Assembly (NCBI GenBank): GCA_020634895.1
Contig: JACKAV010000009.1
Span: 65,465 to 129,464, forward strand
Origin: Anaerolineales bacterium
Lineage (GTDB): Bacteria > Chloroflexota > Anaerolineae > Anaerolineales > Villigracilaceae
Length of the DNA: 64,000 nucleotides
Direction: 5' to 3'
Shown here: piece by piece, positions 10,417 to 23,856 of the stretch
Numbering within the stretch: the stretch's first letter is position 1
Layout: every line of letters starts with the position of its first letter
Program-made: the position numbers and the translations under genes
The notes under the pieces: generated by a model
What the model was told of the DNA's origin: nothing
The model's database searches: none
The model's input: the letters and a program-made list of their open reading frames with translations, nothing else

Positions 10417-11838
10417 CTATTGCGAGAGAGAGCAACGAAAACCAAGATAATTTTCTTTGTCGTTTGGGTTAACCCCAAATCGAAAATACGAACGGGCGGC
10501 ATAGATACCAGAACTCCACGAGCCTCCCCGTTTCACTTTGTTTTGTCCATTTTCAGGGCCTGAGGGATTTTCAGAAGGTGAGTTCAAATAGTAAAGATCA
10601 TCATACCAGTCTCTTACCCATTCAGATACATTTCCTCCCAAATCGTACACTCCATACAGGCTCTTATCACCTAGATATTTGCCAACCGCTGTAGTATCTC
10701 CAATACAAGAATTATCATAATTCGCCTTATTGCAGTTAATATTTTCTCCCCAAGGATAGGTTCGATCATCCTGTCCACGCGCAGCTTTTTCCCATTGTGC
10801 CTCAGTAGGCAGGGCACGTCCCACCCATGAACAATAAGTCATTGCATCGTACCAAGAAACATATACAACCGGATAATTCGCAAACCCGGGGTCATCGAAA
10901 TAAGAAGAACGGGATTGTGAACGATTTTTTTCTGGTGGCTCGCACTGTTTCGCCTCCACACATTTGCCATACATTGCATTAGTGACCTCAGTCTGGTCAA
11001 TCCAATAAGCATCTAAAAAAACTTTATGAGCGACCTGGCTCCAATCTAAACTTCCCATCATAAATTCCCCTGCAGGGACATAAAGCAGCAGCATGTCATC
11101 CTTCAATGACCTTGAGGATGAGCCAATTCCAAGTACCGTTGTCGGTGTCGGGCTGGGAGACGCGGTTTCGGTCAGTGTTGGAGTGAACGGCGCTAACGTC
11201 TCTGTAGGCGGTTTGGGCGTTTCTGTAAAACTCTGTATGGTAGGTGTGGGTGTCGTTTCGGGCAGTTTCCTGAAGAGGGAATTCAAGCCAAATCCGCCTA
11301 AGATGAAAAACAGCAAAACGATTCCCACAACCCCAAAACTGCGAAACCGTTTTACTTGATAGATATTCCCAGACTTGATAAGTCTTTTTACCTCTTCGGT
11401 TTTTACTTTTTCTTCTGGAACCTGCGGCTTCTCTTCTTTTTCAGCTAATCCCCGATCTTTATTTTGCGAGACAACACTTTCAAGGTGACGGAAAAATCTT
11501 TCATCAGGCAGACCACCGCCAATAACATCAGAGTAATTTTTATCCTGCAGCAGCATCCATAGATCACCCTGCAGTAAAAGCGGAAATATCCTTTTGTCCT
11601 TCTGCATGGCATAAAGGACTTCACGTCTCACCCACTTCGAAAATTCCGAACTTTTAGTCATCACAACGATAAAAGCATCGCAGGCGTCTATTCGATTCGT
11701 GATGTGTTCAACCCACTCATCACCAGTCAACATTTCCAGGTCATACCAAACGTTAAATCCCCTTGTTTCAAGGGCATCAACCAGTCTCTTTACATAATCC
11801 TTATCTGTTCGGCTGTAACTAATGAAAATATGACCCAT
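10417..11838 (-). CDS. TIR domain, TM helix, Pro/Thr linker and FGE-sulfatase (SUMF1/C-type lectin fold) domain
   Basis: HIFISYSRTD...SKWVRREV TIR; TM FGVVGIVLLFFILGGFGL; LPTEAQWEKAARG, DLGGNVSEW, RGGSW...LGFR. Confidence 0.88.
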   Translation of the reverse strand: MGHIFISYSRTDKDYVKRLVDALETRGFNVWYDLEMLTGDEWVEHITNRIDACDAFIVVMTKSSEFSKWVRREVLYAMQKDKRIFPLLLQGDLWMLLQDKNYSDVIGGGLPDERFFRHLESVVSQNKDRGLAEKEEKPQVPEEKVKTEEVKRLIKSGNIYQVKRFRSFGVVGIVLLFFILGGFGLNSLFRKLPETTPTPTIQSFTETPKPPTETLAPFTPTLTETASPSPTPTTVLGIGSSSRSLKDDMLLLYVPAGEFMMGSLDWSQVAHKVFLDAYWIDQTEVTNAMYGKCVEAKQCEPPEKNRSQSRSSYFDDPGFANYPVVYVSWYDAMTYCSWVGRALPTEAQWEKAARGQDDRTYPWGENINCNKANYDNSCIGDTTAVGKYLGDKSLYGVYDLGGNVSEWVRDWYDDLYYLNSPSENPSGPENGQNKVKRGGSWSSGIYAARSYFRFGVNPNDKENYLGFRCSLSQ

Positions 11839-11971
11839 AAGTTTTTTAACCAATTACGATGCCTTGCAAGGTGCGGCAAGAAAAACACGGAGAAGCCCTG
11901 GCATGGTTCAGTTAAACCTAGTTTAAAAATTATAAACCCTCCCACCGAGAAAACTCAGCGAGAGGGCTCCA

Positions 11972-11991
11972 AACCTTCAACCTTCAACCCT
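11972..11991. repeat. 7-nt tandem repeat, three units
   Basis: aaccttc aaccttc aaccct directly after the moeB stop. Confidence 0.5.
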
Positions 11992-13145
11992 TAATACAAC
12001 GGCAAACTCGTATCCACTTCCTCTGCCCAGGCGTTGATTCCGCCTTTGAGGTTCTTCATCTTCTTGAAACCGGCGGACGAGAGAATTTCGATGGCGCGCG
12101 CCGAGCGTGATCCGCGTTTGCAGAAGACGACCATCTCTGTAGCAGAATCAAGCTCAGACATACGCTGGGCAACTTCACCGAGCGGGATGTTCTTTGCGCC
12201 ATCAATGGCAGCGATCTCCAACTCGTGAGGCTCACGCACATCGAGCAGGAGCAGGTCCGGGTCACGTTCGAGGCGGGCTTTTAATTCCTGCGCTGTGATG
12301 TCCCAATCCGCGCCCGCAGACGTATCATCCGCATGATGACCGGGCACACCACAAAACTCCTCGTAGTCGATCAACTCGGTGATATCGGCATTCGGTCCGC
12401 ACACACGGCAGTTGGGATTCTTCTTGAGCTTGACGAAATCAAAACTCATATCGAGCGCGTTGTATAGCAGGAGTTTTCCAATCAGCGGCTCGCCGATTCC
12501 AAGCAGGACTTTGAGCGCCTCGGTGGCTTGAAGTGTGCCGATCGTTCCGGGCAGGATGCCCAGCACGCCTCCCTCCGCGCACGAAGGGACAAGCCCGGGC
12601 GGCGGCGGTTCGGGGAAAAGACAGCGATAGCACGGACCTTCCTCGGCGTGAAAGACGCTCACTTGCCCATCGAAGCGGAAGATGGAGCCGTAGATATTCG
12701 GTTTGCCGAGCATCACGCAGACATCGTTGGTGAGATAACGGGTCGGAAAGTTATCGGTGCCGTCGATAATGACATCGTAATCCTTCGCGATGCGCAAGGC
12801 GTTCTCTGATGTATACGGCTCGTTATAAATATCCACCTGAATGTCCGGATTCAAATCCTGCAAGCGTTCGCGGGCACTTTCAACTTTCAACTTTCCAACT
12901 GTGCTCGTTCCGTGAATGACCTGACGCTGAAGGTTGGACGAATCTACAACGTCGTAATCCACCAAGCCAATGCGACCGATGCCAGCCGCGGCGAGGTAAA
13001 GCGCAACGGGAGAGCCAAGTCCGCCTGTGCCGATGACGAGAACAGAAGAGTTCTTGAGTTTGATCTGTCCCTGCAAGCCGACTTCGGGCATGAGCAGGTG
13101 ACGCGAGTAACGCAATATTTGTTCGTGATTAAGTTCTTCGATCAT
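11991..13145 (-). CDS. moeB: MoeB/MoeZ-type E1-like adenylyltransferase with C-terminal rhodanese domain
   Basis: RYSRH, GTGGLGS, SNLQRQ, CYRC and CRVC zinc motifs, PSCAEGG, rhodanese FCKRGSRS. Confidence 0.93.
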   Translation of the reverse strand: MIEELNHEQILRYSRHLLMPEVGLQGQIKLKNSSVLVIGTGGLGSPVALYLAAAGIGRIGLVDYDVVDSSNLQRQVIHGTSTVGKLKVESARERLQDLNPDIQVDIYNEPYTSENALRIAKDYDVIIDGTDNFPTRYLTNDVCVMLGKPNIYGSIFRFDGQVSVFHAEEGPCYRCLFPEPPPPGLVPSCAEGGVLGILPGTIGTLQATEALKVLLGIGEPLIGKLLLYNALDMSFDFVKLKKNPNCRVCGPNADITELIDYEEFCGVPGHHADDTSAGADWDITAQELKARLERDPDLLLLDVREPHELEIAAIDGAKNIPLGEVAQRMSELDSATEMVVFCKRGSRSARAIEILSSAGFKKMKNLKGGINAWAEEVDTSLPLY

Positions 13146-13453
13146 TTTGCCCTCACCCTAACCCTCTCCCAAAGGGAGAGGGAACCACCCGCAATGGACG
13201 GAATGAGCATCAACTTATCGCCGTCCTTGATGGGCGTTTCCACGCCTTGCAGGTCTTTGATATTATGCTCGCCGACGAACAAATTCACGAACGGACGCAG
13301 TTCATCCTTCTCGTTGAACAGATGCGGCTTGATGGCTGGGAACTGAGTCGTCAAATCCGCCAATGCCTCGGAAATATTCGCGCCGTTCACGTCCACTTCA
13401 CTTTTGCCGCTTGTATAGGTACGCAGCGGGGTTGGGATTCTCAAAGTTGTCAT
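13142..13453 (-). CDS. MoaD/ThiS/CysO-family ubiquitin-like sulfur carrier with a 13-aa extension after the Gly-Gly
   Basis: LRIPTPLR..., LRPFVNLFV, LIPSIAGG then SLSLWERVRVRAK-stop; ATGA overlap with moeB. Confidence 0.88.
   Translation of the reverse strand: MTTLRIPTPLRTYTSGKSEVDVNGANISEALADLTTQFPAIKPHLFNEKDELRPFVNLFVGEHNIKDLQGVETPIKDGDKLMLIPSIAGGSLSLWERVRVRAK
13150..13182. repeat. CCCTCACCCTAACCCTCTCCC-AAA-GGGAGAGGG palindromic element inside the Ubl 3' end
   Basis: ccctctccc (13162-13170) / gggagaggg (13174-13182), preceded by ccctca/ccctaa units. Confidence 0.75.
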
Positions 13454-13490
13454 AAATTCTGTTTTCTCTCTCGTTTAGTTTTTTTCTTCT

Positions 13491-13541: not shown

Positions 13542-14066
13542 TCATACAAACAATTGTACATCGGCATCTGCGGCGTATTCAAGGAAGGTCGCCGCGCCGC
13601 CAATCTCCGACTCTGGGATGAAGTCTTCGCGTTTGAAGCCAAAGACATCCATCGTCATCTGGCAGCCGATCATGCGGACGTCAAGTTCCACGCACATATC
13701 GCGTAATTCCTCAACCGTGGCAACGCCTTTATTCTTGAAGGTCTGTTTCATCAAACCGGTTGCCAGCGTCTCAAAACCAGGGACATTCGCCATCAAAATA
13801 TTCGGCATGGGCCAGTTAATGTTCTGGAATCCCTCGGGACCAAAGGGCATTTTCATCGGCATGGCAGGGTTGCCAAGCGCCGAGACTTGAGCGGAAAGCT
13901 TCGGTTTGAGCAGGGTCAGCCCAAAGAAGGTGAAAAAGATACCCACTTCCCAGCCCATTGCAGCGCCCGCACTGGCAAGGATGAACGGCGGATACGCCCA
14001 ATCAAGCGTCCCTTTGCTGGCGATCAACGCCAGTCTCTTCGGGGCATTCGGGTCAGATTTTGACAT
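13542..14066 (-). CDS. DsrE/DsrF/DrsH-like (DsrE2) sulfur-relay protein
   Basis: LALIASKGTLDWAYPPFILA, FFTFFGL, IGCQMTMDVFG, GGAATFL. Confidence 0.85.
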   Translation of the reverse strand: MSKSDPNAPKRLALIASKGTLDWAYPPFILASAGAAMGWEVGIFFTFFGLTLLKPKLSAQVSALGNPAMPMKMPFGPEGFQNINWPMPNILMANVPGFETLATGLMKQTFKNKGVATVEELRDMCVELDVRMIGCQMTMDVFGFKREDFIPESEIGGAATFLEYAADADVQLFV

Positions 14067-14098: not shown

Positions 14099-14335
14099 CT
14101 ACTTTTTGCGCAGGAAGAAAATGAACTTGCCTTCTTCCGTCAGGGAGCGCAGCAATTCGTTGCCGGTTTGCCTGCTCCACGCTTCGATGTCTGGAGGCGA
14201 ACCCGGGTCGGTTGCGATCATTTTCAGCACCTGCCCCGATTCCAATTCCTTGATCGCCTTGGTCGTTTTGACGATCGGCATTGGGCAAAGCAAACCTGTG
14301 CAATCCAAAACCTGGTCTTCGGTGATTACGTCCAT
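14099..14335 (-). CDS. tusA: Sulfurtransferase TusA/SirA family, 78 aa
   Basis: LDCTGLLCPMPIV (CPxP) and ATDPGS motifs; SD aggag before ATG 14335. Confidence 0.9.
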   Translation of the reverse strand: MDVITEDQVLDCTGLLCPMPIVKTTKAIKELESGQVLKMIATDPGSPPDIEAWSRQTGNELLRSLTEEGKFIFFLRKK

Positions 14336-14397: not shown

Positions 14398-14811
14398 CTA
14401 TTGAATTTGAATTTCTTCTTCTTCGTATTGGGTGCGGTCTTCCACCAAACGCCACGAACGGTGGTTGACCGTTTTCCCTTTGTCCACACGCGAAATGATG
14501 TACGAGAAAAACGGCTGCGCCCATTCGCGGTCATATTCAGAAGGCACATTTGGGCAATCAGGGTGAGAATGAAAAACACCGATCAAGTCCATGCCCAACT
14601 CCATCGCTTTCATTTCCGCTTTCAGGTAATCTTCCGGCGTGATCAAAAAACGATTATGACGCGCTTCATCCTCGCGGGCATTCGGCAGCGAGATGATCTC
14701 ACGCACTTCCCCGTCCGCGCCGAGCAAAAAGCCTGCGCCCTCATCGGGATAAGCCGCTTCGATATGTTGTTGAATTCCTTCCAAAATCTTGTTTGTTACT
14801 TTCAAACTCAT
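14398..14811 (-). CDS. mec: JAB/MPN (M67) metallopeptidase, Mec/CysO-cysteine peptidase-like
   Basis: YPDEGAG glutamate and FHSHPD...PSEYD JAMM motif. Confidence 0.88.
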   Translation of the reverse strand: MSLKVTNKILEGIQQHIEAAYPDEGAGFLLGADGEVREIISLPNAREDEARHNRFLITPEDYLKAEMKAMELGMDLIGVFHSHPDCPNVPSEYDREWAQPFFSYIISRVDKGKTVNHRSWRLVEDRTQYEEEEIQIQ

Positions 14812-14814
14812 TTT

Positions 14815-15765
14815 TTATGCTCGCTCCCAAAGAGATTTGTCACTCAAATATTTATAGCCCGCATCCGGGAAGACGGTCACAACCACGCCTTCGTCAAGTT
14901 CACTTGCGACTTGAAGCGCAGCCACTGCCGCCGCCGCGGATGAGATTCCCACAAACAGACCTTCCTCCCGCGCAAGCCGGATCAACATCTCATGCGCCGC
15001 CTCGGTCTTGACCTCAAGCGGATTCCCCGCCAGAGACTCATCATAAATCCCGGGCTTGATGGAAGTCGGCATATGTTTCAATCCCTCCAATCCGTGGAAG
15101 GGAGCGTCCGGCTGAAACGCCAGCGTTTTGACATGCGGCAGATGCTCATGCAGATAGCGGCTTGTACCCGTAAATGTTCCGGATGTGCCCAATCCCGCCA
15201 CGAAGTGTGTGATCTGCCCATTGGTCTGGGAAATGATCTCAGGCGCAGTGCTCAGATAATGTGCCTGCCAGTTCGCGTCGTTGTTGTATTGATTGGCATA
15301 CCAGAATTTGTCCGGAGATTCCGCCGCCATCTCACGCGCCTTGAGGATTGCGCCATCTGAGCCTTCGGTCGGGTCGGTCAACACCAACTCCGCGCCAAGC
15401 GCCTTGAGGATGGAGATCCGCTCGGGGCTGGCGTTGGCAGGGAGCGCCAATGTGACGGGAATTCCCAACGCCGCGCCAAACGTCGCATATGAAATGCCCA
15501 TATTGCCGGACGTTGAATCCAATAGACGTTTGTGGTTATTCAAGTCACCATTGATGATGGCGGTCTGGATGATGTTCAACGCGGGTCGGTCTTTGACCGA
15601 GCCGCCGGGGTTAAACCATTCGGCTTTGGCAAAAACCTTCACTCGCGGTGACAGGCCCAAGGTCACGCGGCGAAGCGGAAGCAGGGGCGTATCCCCCACA
15701 TGAAAAGCAAGGCTGTCCAAAGGGATGGTATTTGATTCGGTTAATCGAAAGTCCAGTAAGGTCAT
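14815..15765 (-). CDS. cysM: PLP-dependent cysteine synthase, CysM-like
   Basis: VGDTPL, NPGGSVKDR (PLP lysine), TSGNMG, GLGTSGT, FPDAGYKYLS; SD aagga before ATG 15765. Confidence 0.9.
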   Translation of the reverse strand: MTLLDFRLTESNTIPLDSLAFHVGDTPLLPLRRVTLGLSPRVKVFAKAEWFNPGGSVKDRPALNIIQTAIINGDLNNHKRLLDSTSGNMGISYATFGAALGIPVTLALPANASPERISILKALGAELVLTDPTEGSDGAILKAREMAAESPDKFWYANQYNNDANWQAHYLSTAPEIISQTNGQITHFVAGLGTSGTFTGTSRYLHEHLPHVKTLAFQPDAPFHGLEGLKHMPTSIKPGIYDESLAGNPLEVKTEAAHEMLIRLAREEGLFVGISSAAAAVAALQVASELDEGVVVTVFPDAGYKYLSDKSLWERA

Positions 15766-15831
15766 ATATTCCTTGTTCAGTTTTGCAAAGGGCAAAACAT
15801 TATCAATTAAATAGAAACAGCCAACAGACAA

Positions 15832-15856
15832 ACAAAAAGACGGCGAACAAACGCCA
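15832..15856 (-). terminator. Candidate attenuator terminator in the cysM leader
   Basis: UGGCG-UUUGUU-CGCCG followed by UCUUUUUGUUU; short stem. Confidence 0.4.
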
Positions 15857-15941
15857 CACATCATGCATACTAAGGGATGCACGCGGGGGTCGCTCTACCG
15901 TCTGAGTCCGTTGGCTGCGGAAGTATTCGCTCAGGCGGTGG

Positions 15942-16065: not shown

Positions 16066-16347
16066 TTATCCGCCCGAAGCAGAAGCCATTAAGATGACCA
16101 CATCCCCATCATTCAATGTTGTCTCAAATCCGTTCAGTTCCTGCATTTGAACGCCGTTCACAAAGATGCTGAAATACCGCCGCAGTTCACCTTTCGCGTC
16201 AAAGAGGTGCGGCTTTAGCGCGGGATAACGCAAAAGGATGTTATCAAGCAGTTCGGTGATCGTTGCGCCGTTCACTGAGAACTCGCTTTGGTTATCAACA
16301 TAATATTTCATCAGGGCGGGAAACTTAACGGTTGGCATGGAAAGCAT
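16066..16347 (-). CDS. Second MoaD/ThiS-family ubiquitin-like protein ending in a free Gly-Gly (start may be 16338)
   Basis: VKFPALM..., LRRYFSIFVNG, ILMASASGG-stop. Confidence 0.85.
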   Translation of the reverse strand: MLSMPTVKFPALMKYYVDNQSEFSVNGATITELLDNILLRYPALKPHLFDAKGELRRYFSIFVNGVQMQELNGFETTLNDGDVVILMASASGG

Positions 16348-23782: not shown

Positions 23783-23856
23783 TTCAGTTATCAGTTGACA
23801 GTGAACAGTGGACAGTAAAACCCACTGTTCACTGATTACTGATCACTGCTCACTGG
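23783..23856. repeat. Inverted pair of 7-nt-periodic arrays (5x CAGT / 5x ACTG)
   Basis: CAGT at 23785, 23792, 23799, 23806, 23813; ACTG at 23824, 23831, 23838, 23845, 23852. Confidence 0.85.

What the first reader, a model, noticed from the sequence alone, without database searches (positions are those of the whole stretch)
13142..13195. Ubiquitin-like sulfur carrier with its Gly-Gly capped by a repeat-encoded peptide
Seen: the Ubl reads ...SIAGG-SLSLWERVRVRAK-stop. The extension is encoded almost entirely by a palindromic element (ccctcaccctaaccctctccc-aaa-gggagaggg, 13150-13182) that also provides the GAGGG SD-like sequence and sits beside the ATGA coupling to moeB. Established: E1-like enzymes need a free C-terminal Gly, and JAB proteases in some thiocarboxylate pathways trim extensions after the GG. 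A JAB gene is in this operon. Inference: a selfish palindrome was tolerated or domesticated as a propeptide, making JAB cleavage an obligatory maturation step.
Basis: partly seen in the sequence, partly recalled or inferred. Interest (0 to 1): 0.75.

Follow-up and report, generated by a model that had tools for sequence, protein, structure and literature searches.

The report
Hairpin repeat translated as sulfur-carrier tail
A copy of a widespread 33-base hairpin repeat sits exactly between the Gly-Gly end of a ubiquitin-like sulfur-carrier gene and its activating-enzyme gene, so the carrier is made with a 13-residue tail; relatives show this junction is repeatedly colonised by different repeats and that the tail is tolerated rather than domesticated, so it must presumably be clipped off, most likely by the operon's JAB protease.

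Summary
The minus-strand ORF 13142-13453 is a ThiS/MoaD/CysO-type Ubl ending ...PSIAGG-SLSLWERVRVRAK. Its TGA overlaps the moeZ ATG as ATGA. The tail is encoded by CCCTCTCCC-TTT-GGGAGAGGG-TTA-GGGTGAGGG (13182-13150). Independent assemblies and sludge metagenome contigs carry the same junction, with no stop after GG.

The element is a dispersed repeat. It is unique in this window, but the exact 21-mer occurs in at least 120 unrelated metagenome contigs, and depth over it rises 20-70 fold.

The tail is not a conserved propeptide. A relative with a 99% identical core has GG-TAG followed by a different repeat. Among 80 Anaerolineales species, 32 have no insert; the commonest empty junction is GGAGGT-stop-N-ATG. 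The other 48 carry one of at least five palindromic repeat families, and 54/80 have residues after GG. Core dN/dS is the same with long tails (0.079) as with GG-stop (0.084), so tailed genes are functional. An intact JAMM gene is found in every locus with enough upstream sequence.

So "tolerated" is supported and "domesticated" is not. JAB trimming is a well-precedented inference (QbsE/QbsD, CxnE/CxnF, MoaD-MoaE/DR0402) that I could not test. The enrichment of repeats at this junction is unexplained.

The parts
13184..13453 (-). Ubl1 core: 90-aa ThiS/MoaD/CysO-type beta-grasp sulfur carrier ending PSIAGG (Gly-Gly codons GGT GGT at 13184-13189)
   Evidence: Pfam PF02597 and NCBIfam SAMP1/moaD_arch hits. 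PDB relatives are 4n6e_B and M. tuberculosis CysO 3dwg_C. The AF2 model is a beta-grasp. The core is 80-99% identical in 120 homologues.
13145..13183 (-). 13-codon post-Gly-Gly tail, SLSLWERVRVRAK
   Evidence: Direct translation. Residues 88-103 have pLDDT below 50 in the AF2 model. The tail is not conserved among orthologues.
13150..13182 (-). Dispersed hairpin repeat. On the minus strand: left arm CCCTCTCCC 13182-13174, loop TTT 13173-13171, right arm GGGAGAGGG 13170-13162, TTA 13161-13159, G-rich end GGGTGAGGG 13158-13150. The SD-like GAGGG is 13154-13150.
   Evidence: The hairpin folds at -17.4 kcal/mol. The exact 21-mer occurs in at least 120 metagenome contigs, nearly always with a C-rich left arm and a variable loop upstream. 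Depth rises 20-70x, with loose ends at 13149/50 and 13182-85. There is a sub-threshold Rfam whalefall-1 match.
13142..13145 (-). ATGA overlap: Ubl1 stop TGA (13142-13144) and moeZ start ATG (13143-13145)
   Evidence: The moeZ start is fixed by the conserved ATGATCGAAGAACTT / MIEEL in orthologues.
11991..13145 (-). moeZ/moeB: E1-like ThiF adenylyltransferase with a C-terminal rhodanese domain
   Evidence: Pfam ThiF 1.5e-84 and Rhodanese 3.1e-18. NCBIfam MoeB/MoeZ models match below their curated cut-offs.
14398..14811 (-). JAB/JAMM (MPN+) metalloprotease, the candidate tail-trimming enzyme
   Evidence: Pfam Prok-JAB 2.3e-20. The motif is intact: E24, H81-S-H83-x7-S91-x2-D94. PDB relatives are 2kcq and PfJAMM1 5ld9. 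It lies upstream of Ubl1 in every related locus with enough sequence.
14815..15765 (-). CysM-type PLP cysteine synthase (likely ATG at 15765; the mechanical ORF runs to 15882)
   Evidence: Pfam PALP and NCBIfam cysM.
16066..16347 (-). Ubl2: second CysO/MoaD-like carrier, ending GG-stop, upstream of cysM
   Evidence: 38/42 orthologues end GG-stop and 4 have tails of 3-8 aa.
14099..14335 (-). TusA-family sulfurtransferase
   Evidence: Pfam TusA 3.6e-22. Start at 14335.
13542..14066 (-). DsrE2-like sulfur carrier
   Evidence: Pfam DrsE_2 7.4e-48. NCBIfam SulfCarrDsrE2 209.3 bits against a cut-off of 210.

Best explanation
A roughly 33-nt copy of a widely dispersed REP-like hairpin repeat has been inserted into the essentially zero-length junction between a CysO/SAMP1-type sulfur-carrier gene and its E1 gene moeZ. 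The repeat is a C-rich arm, a loop and a G-rich arm, followed by TTAGGGTGAGGG.

In relatives without an insert, the commonest junction is GGA-GGT-stop-N-ATG. There the Gly-Gly codons themselves read GGAGG, which is my reading of the moeZ ribosome-binding site. With almost no intergenic DNA, an insertion between the two genes lands next to or inside the stop codon.

Here the Ubl frame enters the repeat in its only stop-free frame and ends in ATGA on the moeZ start. The repeat's G-rich end supplies a replacement GAGGG 4 nt before that ATG.

Shown: the repeat, the insertion site, the lack of tail conservation, and undiminished purifying selection on tailed genes.

Inferred: the 103-aa product is a precursor, because the E1 needs a free Gly90 carboxylate. 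The disordered tail is most likely clipped by the operon's JAMM protease. The tail peptide has no function of its own; it is tolerated because a processing activity exists.
For: The sequence and reading frame are confirmed, and independent assemblies and contigs carry the same junction.

Repeat status: the exact 21-mer occurs in at least 120 unrelated metagenome contigs, nearly always with a C-rich left arm and a variable loop upstream. Metagenome depth rises 20-70 fold exactly over 13150-13185, with unrelated flanks.

Empty site and other occupants: of the 32 species without an insert, about 20 have GGAGGY-TRA-N-ATG and most of the rest lack the stop and read a short tail into moeZ; the other 48 carry palindromic repeats of at least five families.

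Lability: L001, with a 99% identical core, has GGG-TAG and a T1-type repeat. Close relatives carrying the same repeat differ in the loop and in point changes.

Function retained: core dN/dS is 0.079 for 361 long-tail pairs and 0.084 for 296 GG-stop pairs.

Processing capacity: the JAMM motif is intact, and JAB is found upstream of Ubl1 in every locus with enough sequence. In the wider family, only 19 of 129 cluster representatives end at GG. In-frame Ubl-linker-MoeZ fusions sit next to Prok-JAB genes.

The tail is predicted to be disordered.

Precedents: QbsE-CF/QbsD and CxnE-decapeptide/CxnF (PMC5925218), the MoaD-MoaE fusion cut by DR0402 and linear fusions cut by HvJAMM1 (PMC8832034), and the prediction by Iyer et al. 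2006 (PMC1779556).
Against: Nothing here shows cleavage. JAB is present in GG-stop species too, and it is independently explained by the CysO-CysM-Mec+ pathway, where it hydrolyses the CysO-Cys adduct. Co-occurrence therefore does not discriminate.

Cluster representatives over-sample long or erroneous ORFs, so the 19/129 figure exaggerates how frequent tails are.

Passive tolerance does not by itself explain why this junction holds repeats far more often than neighbouring DNA.

Species counts are not phylogenetically independent.
Confidence: 0.6

Rival explanations
1. The hairpin is there because it is useful as RNA or DNA. A stable stem between carrier and E1, plus a built-in SD and near-terminal stops, would tune the carrier:E1 expression ratio, mRNA stability or translational coupling. 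The translated tail would be a by-product. This is compatible with JAB trimming but changes what is under selection.
For: Repeats are strongly enriched at this junction compared with the +-10 kb flanks. T3 has 8 copies at Ubl1>moeZ plus 2 at cysM>JAB, against 3 elsewhere in 1.16 Mb. T1 has 18 against 40, and T2 has 8 against 11. The repeats sit at many different offsets after GG, which implies independent insertions. At each occupied junction a T3 copy lies with its G-rich end 1-7 nt before the downstream ATG, at both junctions; L022 and L058 also hold an extra inverted copy. The element carries TAG and TGA in two frames near its 3' end and is open in the third. Whatever frame enters it, the upstream ORF ends within 20 nt of the next start. 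Spacer folds are stable, with median MFE from -22 to -50 kcal/mol.
Against: 40% of species do without any insert. The five families differ greatly in length (38-158 nt) and stability. The counts are inflated by shared ancestry. There are no expression data: metatranscriptome contigs are too sparse. The fold of the local mRNA is not unusual against shuffles (z = -0.66).
Confidence: 0.25
2. The capped Ubl1 is dead or idle in this organism. The tail blocks adenylation, nothing removes it, and the GG-stop Ubl2 at 16066-16347 does the work.
For: A second carrier ending in GG-stop is in the same operon. An E1 cannot adenylate an internal Gly (established enzymology).
Against: The Ubl1 core is under equally strong purifying selection in tailed and untailed lineages (dN/dS 0.079 against 0.084). 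54/80 species have tails. The window differs from its 99% relative by 1 non-synonymous and 7 synonymous changes. Ubl1 is transcribed. Translational coupling to moeZ is preserved.
Confidence: 0.07
3. The tail is removed by a protease other than the operon's JAB, such as a general carboxy-terminal or housekeeping peptidase. JAB would then serve only CysO-Cys hydrolysis.
For: JAB presence is fully explained by the CysO/CysM/Mec+ pathway and does not track tail presence. The tail is predicted to be disordered and so accessible.
Against: Every characterised case of post-GG trimming of bacterial sulfur carriers cited here uses a clustered JAMM enzyme (PMC5925218, PMC8832034). Exact exposure of Gly90 needs Ubl-directed specificity. 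Ubl-MoeZ fusions in the wider family sit directly beside JAB genes.
Confidence: 0.08

Closest known systems
Precursor-type sulfur-carrier proteins trimmed by a clustered JAMM protease: QbsE-CF/QbsD (thioquinolobactin) and CxnE-SEAARAEESR/CxnF (chuangxinmycin), cited from PMC5925218; HcyS-Ala/HcyD (from my own knowledge, not checked here)
   Same: A ThiS/MoaD-fold carrier has residues after the Gly-Gly. A JAMM gene lies in the same cluster. A MoeZ-type E1 with a rhodanese domain needs a free C-terminal Gly.
   Different: In those cases the extension is a lineage-stable part of the gene. Here it is encoded by a mobile hairpin repeat, differs between near-identical strains, and is absent in a third of related species. 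Cleavage is demonstrated or proposed there and is untested here.
MoaD-MoaE linear fusion cleaved by DR0402/DRJAMM in Deinococcus radiodurans; HvJAMM1 and PfJAMM1 cleaving linear SAMP fusions (PMC8832034)
   Same: A JAMM enzyme releases a Ubl with a free C-terminal Gly from whatever follows it. Analogous Ubl-linker-MoeZ fusions beside JAB genes occur in this family. L034 reads as a fusion through a repeat.
   Different: In the window the two proteins are separate ORFs (ATGA overlap), and the appended piece is a 13-aa non-functional peptide.
CysO-CysM-Mec+-MoeZ thiocarboxylate-dependent cysteine biosynthesis (M. tuberculosis; PMC3227635 for MoeZR/CysO)
   Same: The gene set matches: CysO-like Ubl, CysM, JAB, and MoeZ with rhodanese. 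Ubl1 matches the Mtb CysO structure 3dwg_C at E = 1.9e-12.
   Different: There are two Ubls plus TusA and DsrE2 in one operon. Which Ubl serves CysM is not established. Mtb CysO ends at GG.
Palindromic repeats translated inside genes: Rickettsia palindromic elements (Ogata 2000/2002, cited in PMC5896051) and Coxiella QMITE2 giving EnhC a 33-aa C-terminal extension (PMC5896051)
   Same: A short dispersed palindrome is inserted in frame and contributes residues. Strain-to-strain presence or absence, and stop-before versus read-through variants, are also seen.
   Different: Here the host protein's chemistry requires removal of the added residues. One junction has also been hit by several unrelated repeat families.
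REP/BIME-type repetitive extragenic palindromes; Rfam whalefall-1 (RF01762, PMC2864571)
   Same: It is a short GC-rich hairpin with a variable loop, dispersed in many copies, often in inverted pairs. Whalefall-1 shares the CUCUCC/GGAGAG hairpin and the AGGGUGAGG box.
   Different: No RAYT or transposase association was tested. The whalefall-1 score is 21.4 bits against a gathering score of 37, and the model's 24-nt internal segment is missing.

Membership tests
ThiS/MoaD/CysO sulfur-carrier Ubl | beta-grasp fold / family profile match | tested here: met
   PF02597 38.5 bits against a cut-off of 22.5. PDB CysO 3dwg_C at 1.9e-12. The AF2 model is a beta-grasp.
ThiS/MoaD/CysO sulfur-carrier Ubl | Gly-Gly at the extreme C-terminus of the gene product | tested here: not met
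   The invariant Gly-Gly is at residues 89-90, but 13 residues follow it. The mature form is unknown.
ThiS/MoaD/CysO sulfur-carrier Ubl | partner E1-like adenylyltransferase adjacent | tested here: met
   moeZ (ThiF + rhodanese) overlaps the stop codon.
ThiS/MoaD/CysO sulfur-carrier Ubl | C-terminal thiocarboxylate formation | not testable with these tools
   Needs biochemistry.
JAMM-processed precursor sulfur carriers (QbsE/CxnE type) | extension after Gly-Gly | tested here: met
   The tail is 13 aa. 54/80 related species also have residues after GG.
JAMM-processed precursor sulfur carriers (QbsE/CxnE type) | JAMM/MPN+ gene with an intact E..HxHx7Sx2D motif in the same cluster | tested here: met
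   Gene at 14398-14811, with E24 and H81SH83-x7-S91-x2-D94.
JAMM-processed precursor sulfur carriers (QbsE/CxnE type) | cleavage exactly after Gly-Gly by that JAMM | not testable with these tools
   This is an inference only. Co-occurrence is uninformative because GG-stop species also have JAB.
Dispersed REP-like palindromic repeat | many copies with unrelated flanks | tested here: met
   At least 120 metagenome contigs and a 20-70x depth spike. There is only 1 copy in the 64-kb window, and copies are rare in related genomes' flanks.
Dispersed REP-like palindromic repeat | conserved stem with a variable loop | tested here: met
   Loops of 3-12 nt of unrelated sequence lie between a C-rich left arm (variants such as CCCCTCGCCC occur) and the G-rich arm, which the search fixed. 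Close relatives differ in the loop.
Dispersed REP-like palindromic repeat | associated mobilising enzyme (RAYT / IS200-type) or TIR+TSD of a MITE | not tested
   No transposase search was done, and no obvious target-site duplication was seen at the junction.
Rfam whalefall-1 RF01762 | covariance-model score at or above the gathering threshold | tested here: not met
   21.4 bits against 37. The model's internal 24-nt segment is absent.
Domesticated propeptide | conservation of the peptide (sequence, length or frame) among orthologues | tested here: not met
   Tails differ in family, frame and length, and are absent in 26/80 species. A relative with a 99% identical core lacks the tail.

The most novel reading that the evidence does not exclude
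Because a dedicated protease exposes Gly-Gly whatever follows it, the C-terminus of this carrier is a buffered 'safe harbour'. Alternatively it is a selected landing pad. In either case, unrelated selfish hairpin repeats colonise it far more often than neighbouring DNA. At least five repeat families would then have turned a GG-stop gene into a proprotein independently, and the repeats act as portable intercistronic modules: hairpin, frame-independent stops and an SD. This would be a natural experiment on how a processing enzyme relaxes constraint on a gene end, and a bacterial parallel to ubiquitin's variable C-terminal caps.
Probability: 0.3. Interest if true: 0.65.

Novelty: new variant of a known kind. 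Interest (0 to 1): 0.5.

Why it matters
Sulfur carriers that need JAMM trimming are known from only a few biosynthetic clusters. Here a primary-metabolism-type operon (CysO/CysM/JAB/MoeZ with TusA and DsrE2) in a whole order of Chloroflexota shows post-GG extensions as the majority state. Many of them are created by mobile hairpin repeats.

If the JAB enzyme trims them, it must accept essentially any sequence after Gly-Gly, from 1 to more than 40 residues and even a whole E1. That makes it an easily testable, promiscuous Ubl C-terminal hydrolase.

For annotation, the result also warns that 'long' MoaD/ThiS proteins in these genomes are precursors or read-through repeats, not new domains.

For repeat biology, it identifies operon junctions where repeats accumulate, with a fixed orientation that preserves the downstream ribosome-binding site.

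Tried and rejected
- **Assembly or sequencing artefact.** Rejected: an identical independent scaffold and spanning contigs in several runs.
- **Repeat within the window.** Searching the window with up to 3 mismatches found only this copy. The claim of a repeat therefore had to be tested elsewhere.
- **Conserved propeptide.** Rejected by the tails of 120 homologues and 80 species loci.
- **Pseudogene or idle gene.** Rejected by dN/dS.
- **Frame constraint on the repeat.** All three frames occur among relatives (…RVRVRAK read-through, …GEG-TAG, …GRG(LG)-TGA), so the peptide frame is not selected.
- **Known RNA family.** Only a sub-threshold whalefall-1 match.
- **G-quadruplex instead of hairpin.** The motif fits G3N3G3N3G3N3G3, but the model energy is -12.6 against -17.4 kcal/mol for the hairpin, so I did not pursue it.
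- **JAB co-occurrence as a test of trimming.** Uninformative, because JAB is in all loci with enough upstream sequence.
- **Metatranscriptome coverage across the junction.** Too sparse, and contigs break at the repeat.
- **Position of metagenomic copies relative to ORFs.** Crude analysis: 22 of 104 copies are read into by a same-strand ORF. I treat this as indicative only, because mechanical ORFs in GC-rich DNA are noisy.
Full report
**1. Observation**

The minus-strand ORF 13142-13453 encodes 103 residues: MTTLRIP...LMLIPSIAGG-SLSLWERVRVRAK.
- The Gly-Gly codons GGT GGT are 13184-13189, and the 13-codon tail is 13145-13183.
- The stop TGA (13142-13144) overlaps the ATG (13143-13145) of the next gene as ATGA.
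- The tail DNA is almost entirely CCCTCTCCC-TTT-GGGAGAGGG-TTA-GGGTGAGGG (13182-13150, minus strand), followed by CAAA and the ATG.
- The 21-nt inverted repeat has one match in the window against 0.01 expected from shuffles. The stem folds at -17.4 kcal/mol.

The one point it could not have known is that the element occurs only once in these 64 kb, even allowing 3 mismatches.

**2. The genes**

All genes are on the minus strand:

| Gene | Coordinates | Evidence |
|---|---|---|
| Ubl2 (ThiS/MoaD, ends GG-stop) | 16066-16347 | Pfam/NCBIfam |
| CysM-type PLP enzyme | 14815-15765 | Pfam/NCBIfam |
| Prok-JAB | 14398-14811 | motif E24, H81-S-H83-x7-S91-x2-D94 intact |
| TusA | 14099-14335 | Pfam |
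| DsrE2-like | 13542-14066 | Pfam/NCBIfam |
| Ubl1 (the finding) | 13142-13453 | Pfam PF02597 |
| MoeZ/MoeB (ThiF + rhodanese) | 11991-13145 | Pfam/NCBIfam |

The closest solved structures to Ubl1 are 4n6e_B, deposited as a ThiS/MoaD family protein, and M. tuberculosis CysO 3dwg_C. The closest to JAB are 2kcq and PfJAMM1. This is a CysO/CysM/Mec+/MoeZ-type thiocarboxylate operon, enlarged by a second carrier and two sulfur-relay proteins.

**3. Is the sequence real?**

- An independent 2,982-bp ENA scaffold has the identical junction.
- In four activated-sludge metagenomes, contigs run from moeZ into the element with 0 differences (X1 13045-13178, X6 13056-13175). A variant contig covers the whole junction (X4 12979-13214). 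None has a stop after GG.
- Wastewater metatranscriptome contigs cover Ubl1 (13173-13485), moeZ, tusA and cysM at low depth.

**4. Is the element a repeat?**

Yes, but the evidence comes from outside the window.
- Nearly all copies have an upstream (T)CCCCTCTCCC arm and a loop of 3-12 unrelated bases. Flanks are unrelated, composition and environments vary, and copies often sit in inverted pairs.
- In the sludge runs, depth rises 20-70 fold exactly over 13143-13196. Loose ends at 13149/13150 and 13182-13185 mark the element's borders.
- Rfam gives only a sub-threshold match to whalefall-1: 21.4 bits against a gathering score of 37. The shared parts are the CUCUCC/GGAGAG hairpin and the AGGGUGAGG box (PMC2864571).

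**5. What orthologues show**

The 120 best homologues have an extremely conserved core (...LIPSIAGG, 71-99% identity) but very different ends:
- nothing after GG;
- 1-3 residues (KNS, KIS, RDY and others);
- ...PLSLWERVRVRAK-type tails;
- longer double-repeat tails (SLIPNPSPEGEG-SPLSLWERVRVRAK);
- GEGLGMR-type tails;
- CHCEE...RRSNL...LAMT-type tails;
- NTKDTK...LRVLCGEK-type tails.

The most telling case is L001. Its core is 99% identical (1 non-synonymous and 7 synonymous differences), but it reads GGT GGG TAG, followed by a different palindromic repeat of about 100 nt before the same moeZ ATG.

Close relatives that keep the window's repeat at the same site differ in the loop and in point changes: SLSLWEGGRVRAL, SLSFGERARVRAK, SSLSCWERVRVRA and SSLSFWERVRVRAK.

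**6. The junction across 80 species**

The set is 79 GTDB species genomes of Anaerolineales / Candidatus Villigracilis and relatives, plus the window.
- 32 have no insert. About 20 of these read GGAGGY-TRA-N-ATG, so the Gly-Gly codons form a GGAGG about 5 nt before the moeZ ATG; I read that as the moeZ ribosome-binding site. In most of the others the stop is missing and a short tail reads into moeZ; in nine it is a 4-aa xHVA-type tail overlapping moeZ by 11 nt.
- 48 carry a palindromic insert:
  - T1 GTCATTGCGAGG...CCTCGCAATGAC: 19
  - T2 CACGAAGGxCACAAAGG...: 12
  - T3, the window's type (including a GGGGAAGGG...GGGGATGGGG variant): 11
  - T4: 2
  - T5: 2
  - other: 2
- Overall 54/80 have at least one residue after GG, and 26/80 end at GG.
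- The inserts begin 0-7 nt after GG at many different offsets, so several independent insertions are involved.
- L034 reads straight through a repeat into MoeZ with no stop.

This geometry explains why repeats become tails here. There is essentially no intergenic DNA, so an insertion between the genes lands next to or inside the stop codon.

**7. The tail is not special to the Ubl**

The same 21-mer, in the same orientation, lies at the other zero-length junction of the operon (cysM>JAB) in L019, L027, L031, L045, L055 and L068.
- In L019, L027, L031 and L045 it is read in another frame, giving CysM ...LWE-SPLPEGEG-type tails that stop at the TAG inside TTAGGG; in L055 and L068 the frame ends at the TGA of GGTGAGGG.
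- GGTGAGGG then sits 1-3 nt before the JAB ATG.
- Tails on the other operon proteins are otherwise near zero. Ubl2 is GG-stop in 38/42.

The element has TAG and TGA in two frames near its 3' end and is open in the third, which is the window's frame. Whatever frame enters it, translation ends within about 20 nt of the next start.

**8. Are tailed genes functional?**

Nei-Gojobori dN/dS of the 270-nt core is 0.079 for 361 pairs of long-tail species and 0.084 for 296 pairs of GG-stop species. This removes the 'inactivated gene, Ubl2 used instead' alternative as a general explanation.

AlphaFold2 models a beta-grasp, with residues 88-103 below pLDDT 50.

**9. Wider family**

Among the 150 listed representatives of 50%-identity clusters, 129 have a recognisable ...AGG motif. 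Only 19 of these end at GG.
- Many are in-frame Ubl-linker-MoeZ fusions (...AGG-x10-30-LSxDEIxRYSRHL...).
- Two are tandem Ubl-Ubl proteins.
- Two fusions that I looked up lie directly downstream of Prok-JAB genes.

Cluster representatives favour long or erroneous ORFs, so these proportions are upper bounds.

**10. Mechanism**

It is established enzymology that E1-like enzymes adenylate the free carboxylate of the C-terminal Gly, so the 103-aa product must be trimmed to work.

The literature supplies direct precedents for JAMM enzymes doing this:
- QbsD removes CF from QbsE, and CxnF is proposed to remove a decapeptide from CxnE (PMC5925218).
- DR0402 cuts a MoaD-MoaE fusion, and HvJAMM1 cuts linear SAMP fusions (PMC8832034).
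- Iyer et al. predicted this role for JAB next to fused ThiS/MoaD (PMC1779556).

My best explanation is that the repeat is a tolerated insertion and the operon's JAB, or less likely another protease, exposes Gly90. I give this a confidence of 0.6, and the cleavage step is inferred. 'Domestication' of the peptide is rejected.

**11. What remains unexplained**

In 1.16 Mb of related loci, the repeats are concentrated at this junction:

| Repeat type | At Ubl1>moeZ | At cysM>JAB | Elsewhere |
|---|---|---|---|
| T3 | 8 | 2 | 3 |
| T1 | 18 | – | 40 |
| T2 | 8 | – | 11 |

At each occupied junction a T3 copy is oriented with its G-rich end next to the downstream ATG; L022 and L058 also hold an extra inverted copy. 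Three explanations cannot be separated here: target preference of an unknown mobilising enzyme, relaxed constraint because the tail is removed, or selection for a hairpin/SD module that tunes carrier:E1 expression. Shared ancestry inflates the counts.

**12. Comparison and novelty**

Two phenomena are each known:
- precursor sulfur carriers trimmed by JAMM enzymes;
- palindromic repeats translated as parts of proteins (Rickettsia RPEs; Coxiella QMITE2 extending EnhC by 33 aa, PMC5896051).

Their combination did not turn up in my limited literature searches. The combination means a carrier whose required free end is capped by interchangeable mobile repeats, as the majority state across an order, with purifying selection undiminished. 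I rate it a new variant of a known kind, of moderate interest. The single-locus 'propeptide' reading is too strong, but the family-wide pattern gives a cheap and decisive biochemical test.

Noticed in passing
L034 10270-10315 (JAXLVX010000044.1, Anaerolineales STL-CHL8): Ubl1, a T3-variant repeat and MoeZ are in one reading frame with no stop (GG-SPFPFRGKGRGWGR-MIEEL...). This is either a repeat-made Ubl-E1 fusion or a sequencing error.
   Followed up: partly
L209 567-1493; L210 1330-1965: In more distant relatives the carrier is naturally fused in frame to the ThiF/MoeZ enzyme through a 10-30-aa linker. The fusion gene lies directly downstream of a Prok-JAB gene.
   Followed up: partly
L211 6001-6573: A tandem Ubl-Ubl protein (two ThiS domains, each ending in GG) lies next to PALP and NIL-domain genes. 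It resembles a di-ubiquitin-like precursor.
   Followed up: no
L019, L027, L031, L045, L055, L068, about 1.6-1.9 kb upstream of Ubl1's GG: The same 21-mer repeat, in the same orientation, sits at the cysM>JAB junction. It gives CysM an ...LWE-SPLPEGEG-type tail and places GGTGAGGG 1-3 nt before the JAB ATG.
   Followed up: yes
L033 7320-7400; also P0200 and P0243: The tail ends in a second copy of ...PSIAGG-stop, a duplicated carrier C-terminus after an insert.
   Followed up: no
window 13150-13170 (-): The G-rich arm GGGAGAGGGTTAGGGTGAGGG fits a G3N3G3N3G3N3G3 quadruplex motif and contains TTAGGG. ViennaRNA gives -12.6 kcal/mol for the quadruplex against -17.4 for the hairpin.
   Followed up: partly
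window 13149-13184 (-): There is a sub-threshold Rfam match to whalefall-1 (RF01762, 21.4 bits against 37). That 'environmental-only' motif may be a relative of this repeat family.
   Followed up: partly
window 10417-11853 (-): A 478-aa protein with an N-terminal TIR domain and a C-terminal FGE-sulfatase/SUMF1-like domain lies just downstream of moeZ. From the sequence I judge there is a probable membrane segment between the domains.
   Followed up: no
window 23785-23848: This is the longest inverted repeat in the window: 27-nt arms, 85% complementary, 10 nt apart (CAGTTATCAGTTGACAGTGAACAGTGG...). It is unrelated to the finding.
   Followed up: no
window 14815-15882 (-): The mechanical cysM ORF starts at a GTG 39 codons upstream of the ATG (15765) where homology begins. 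The upstream stretch is probably not translated.
   Followed up: no
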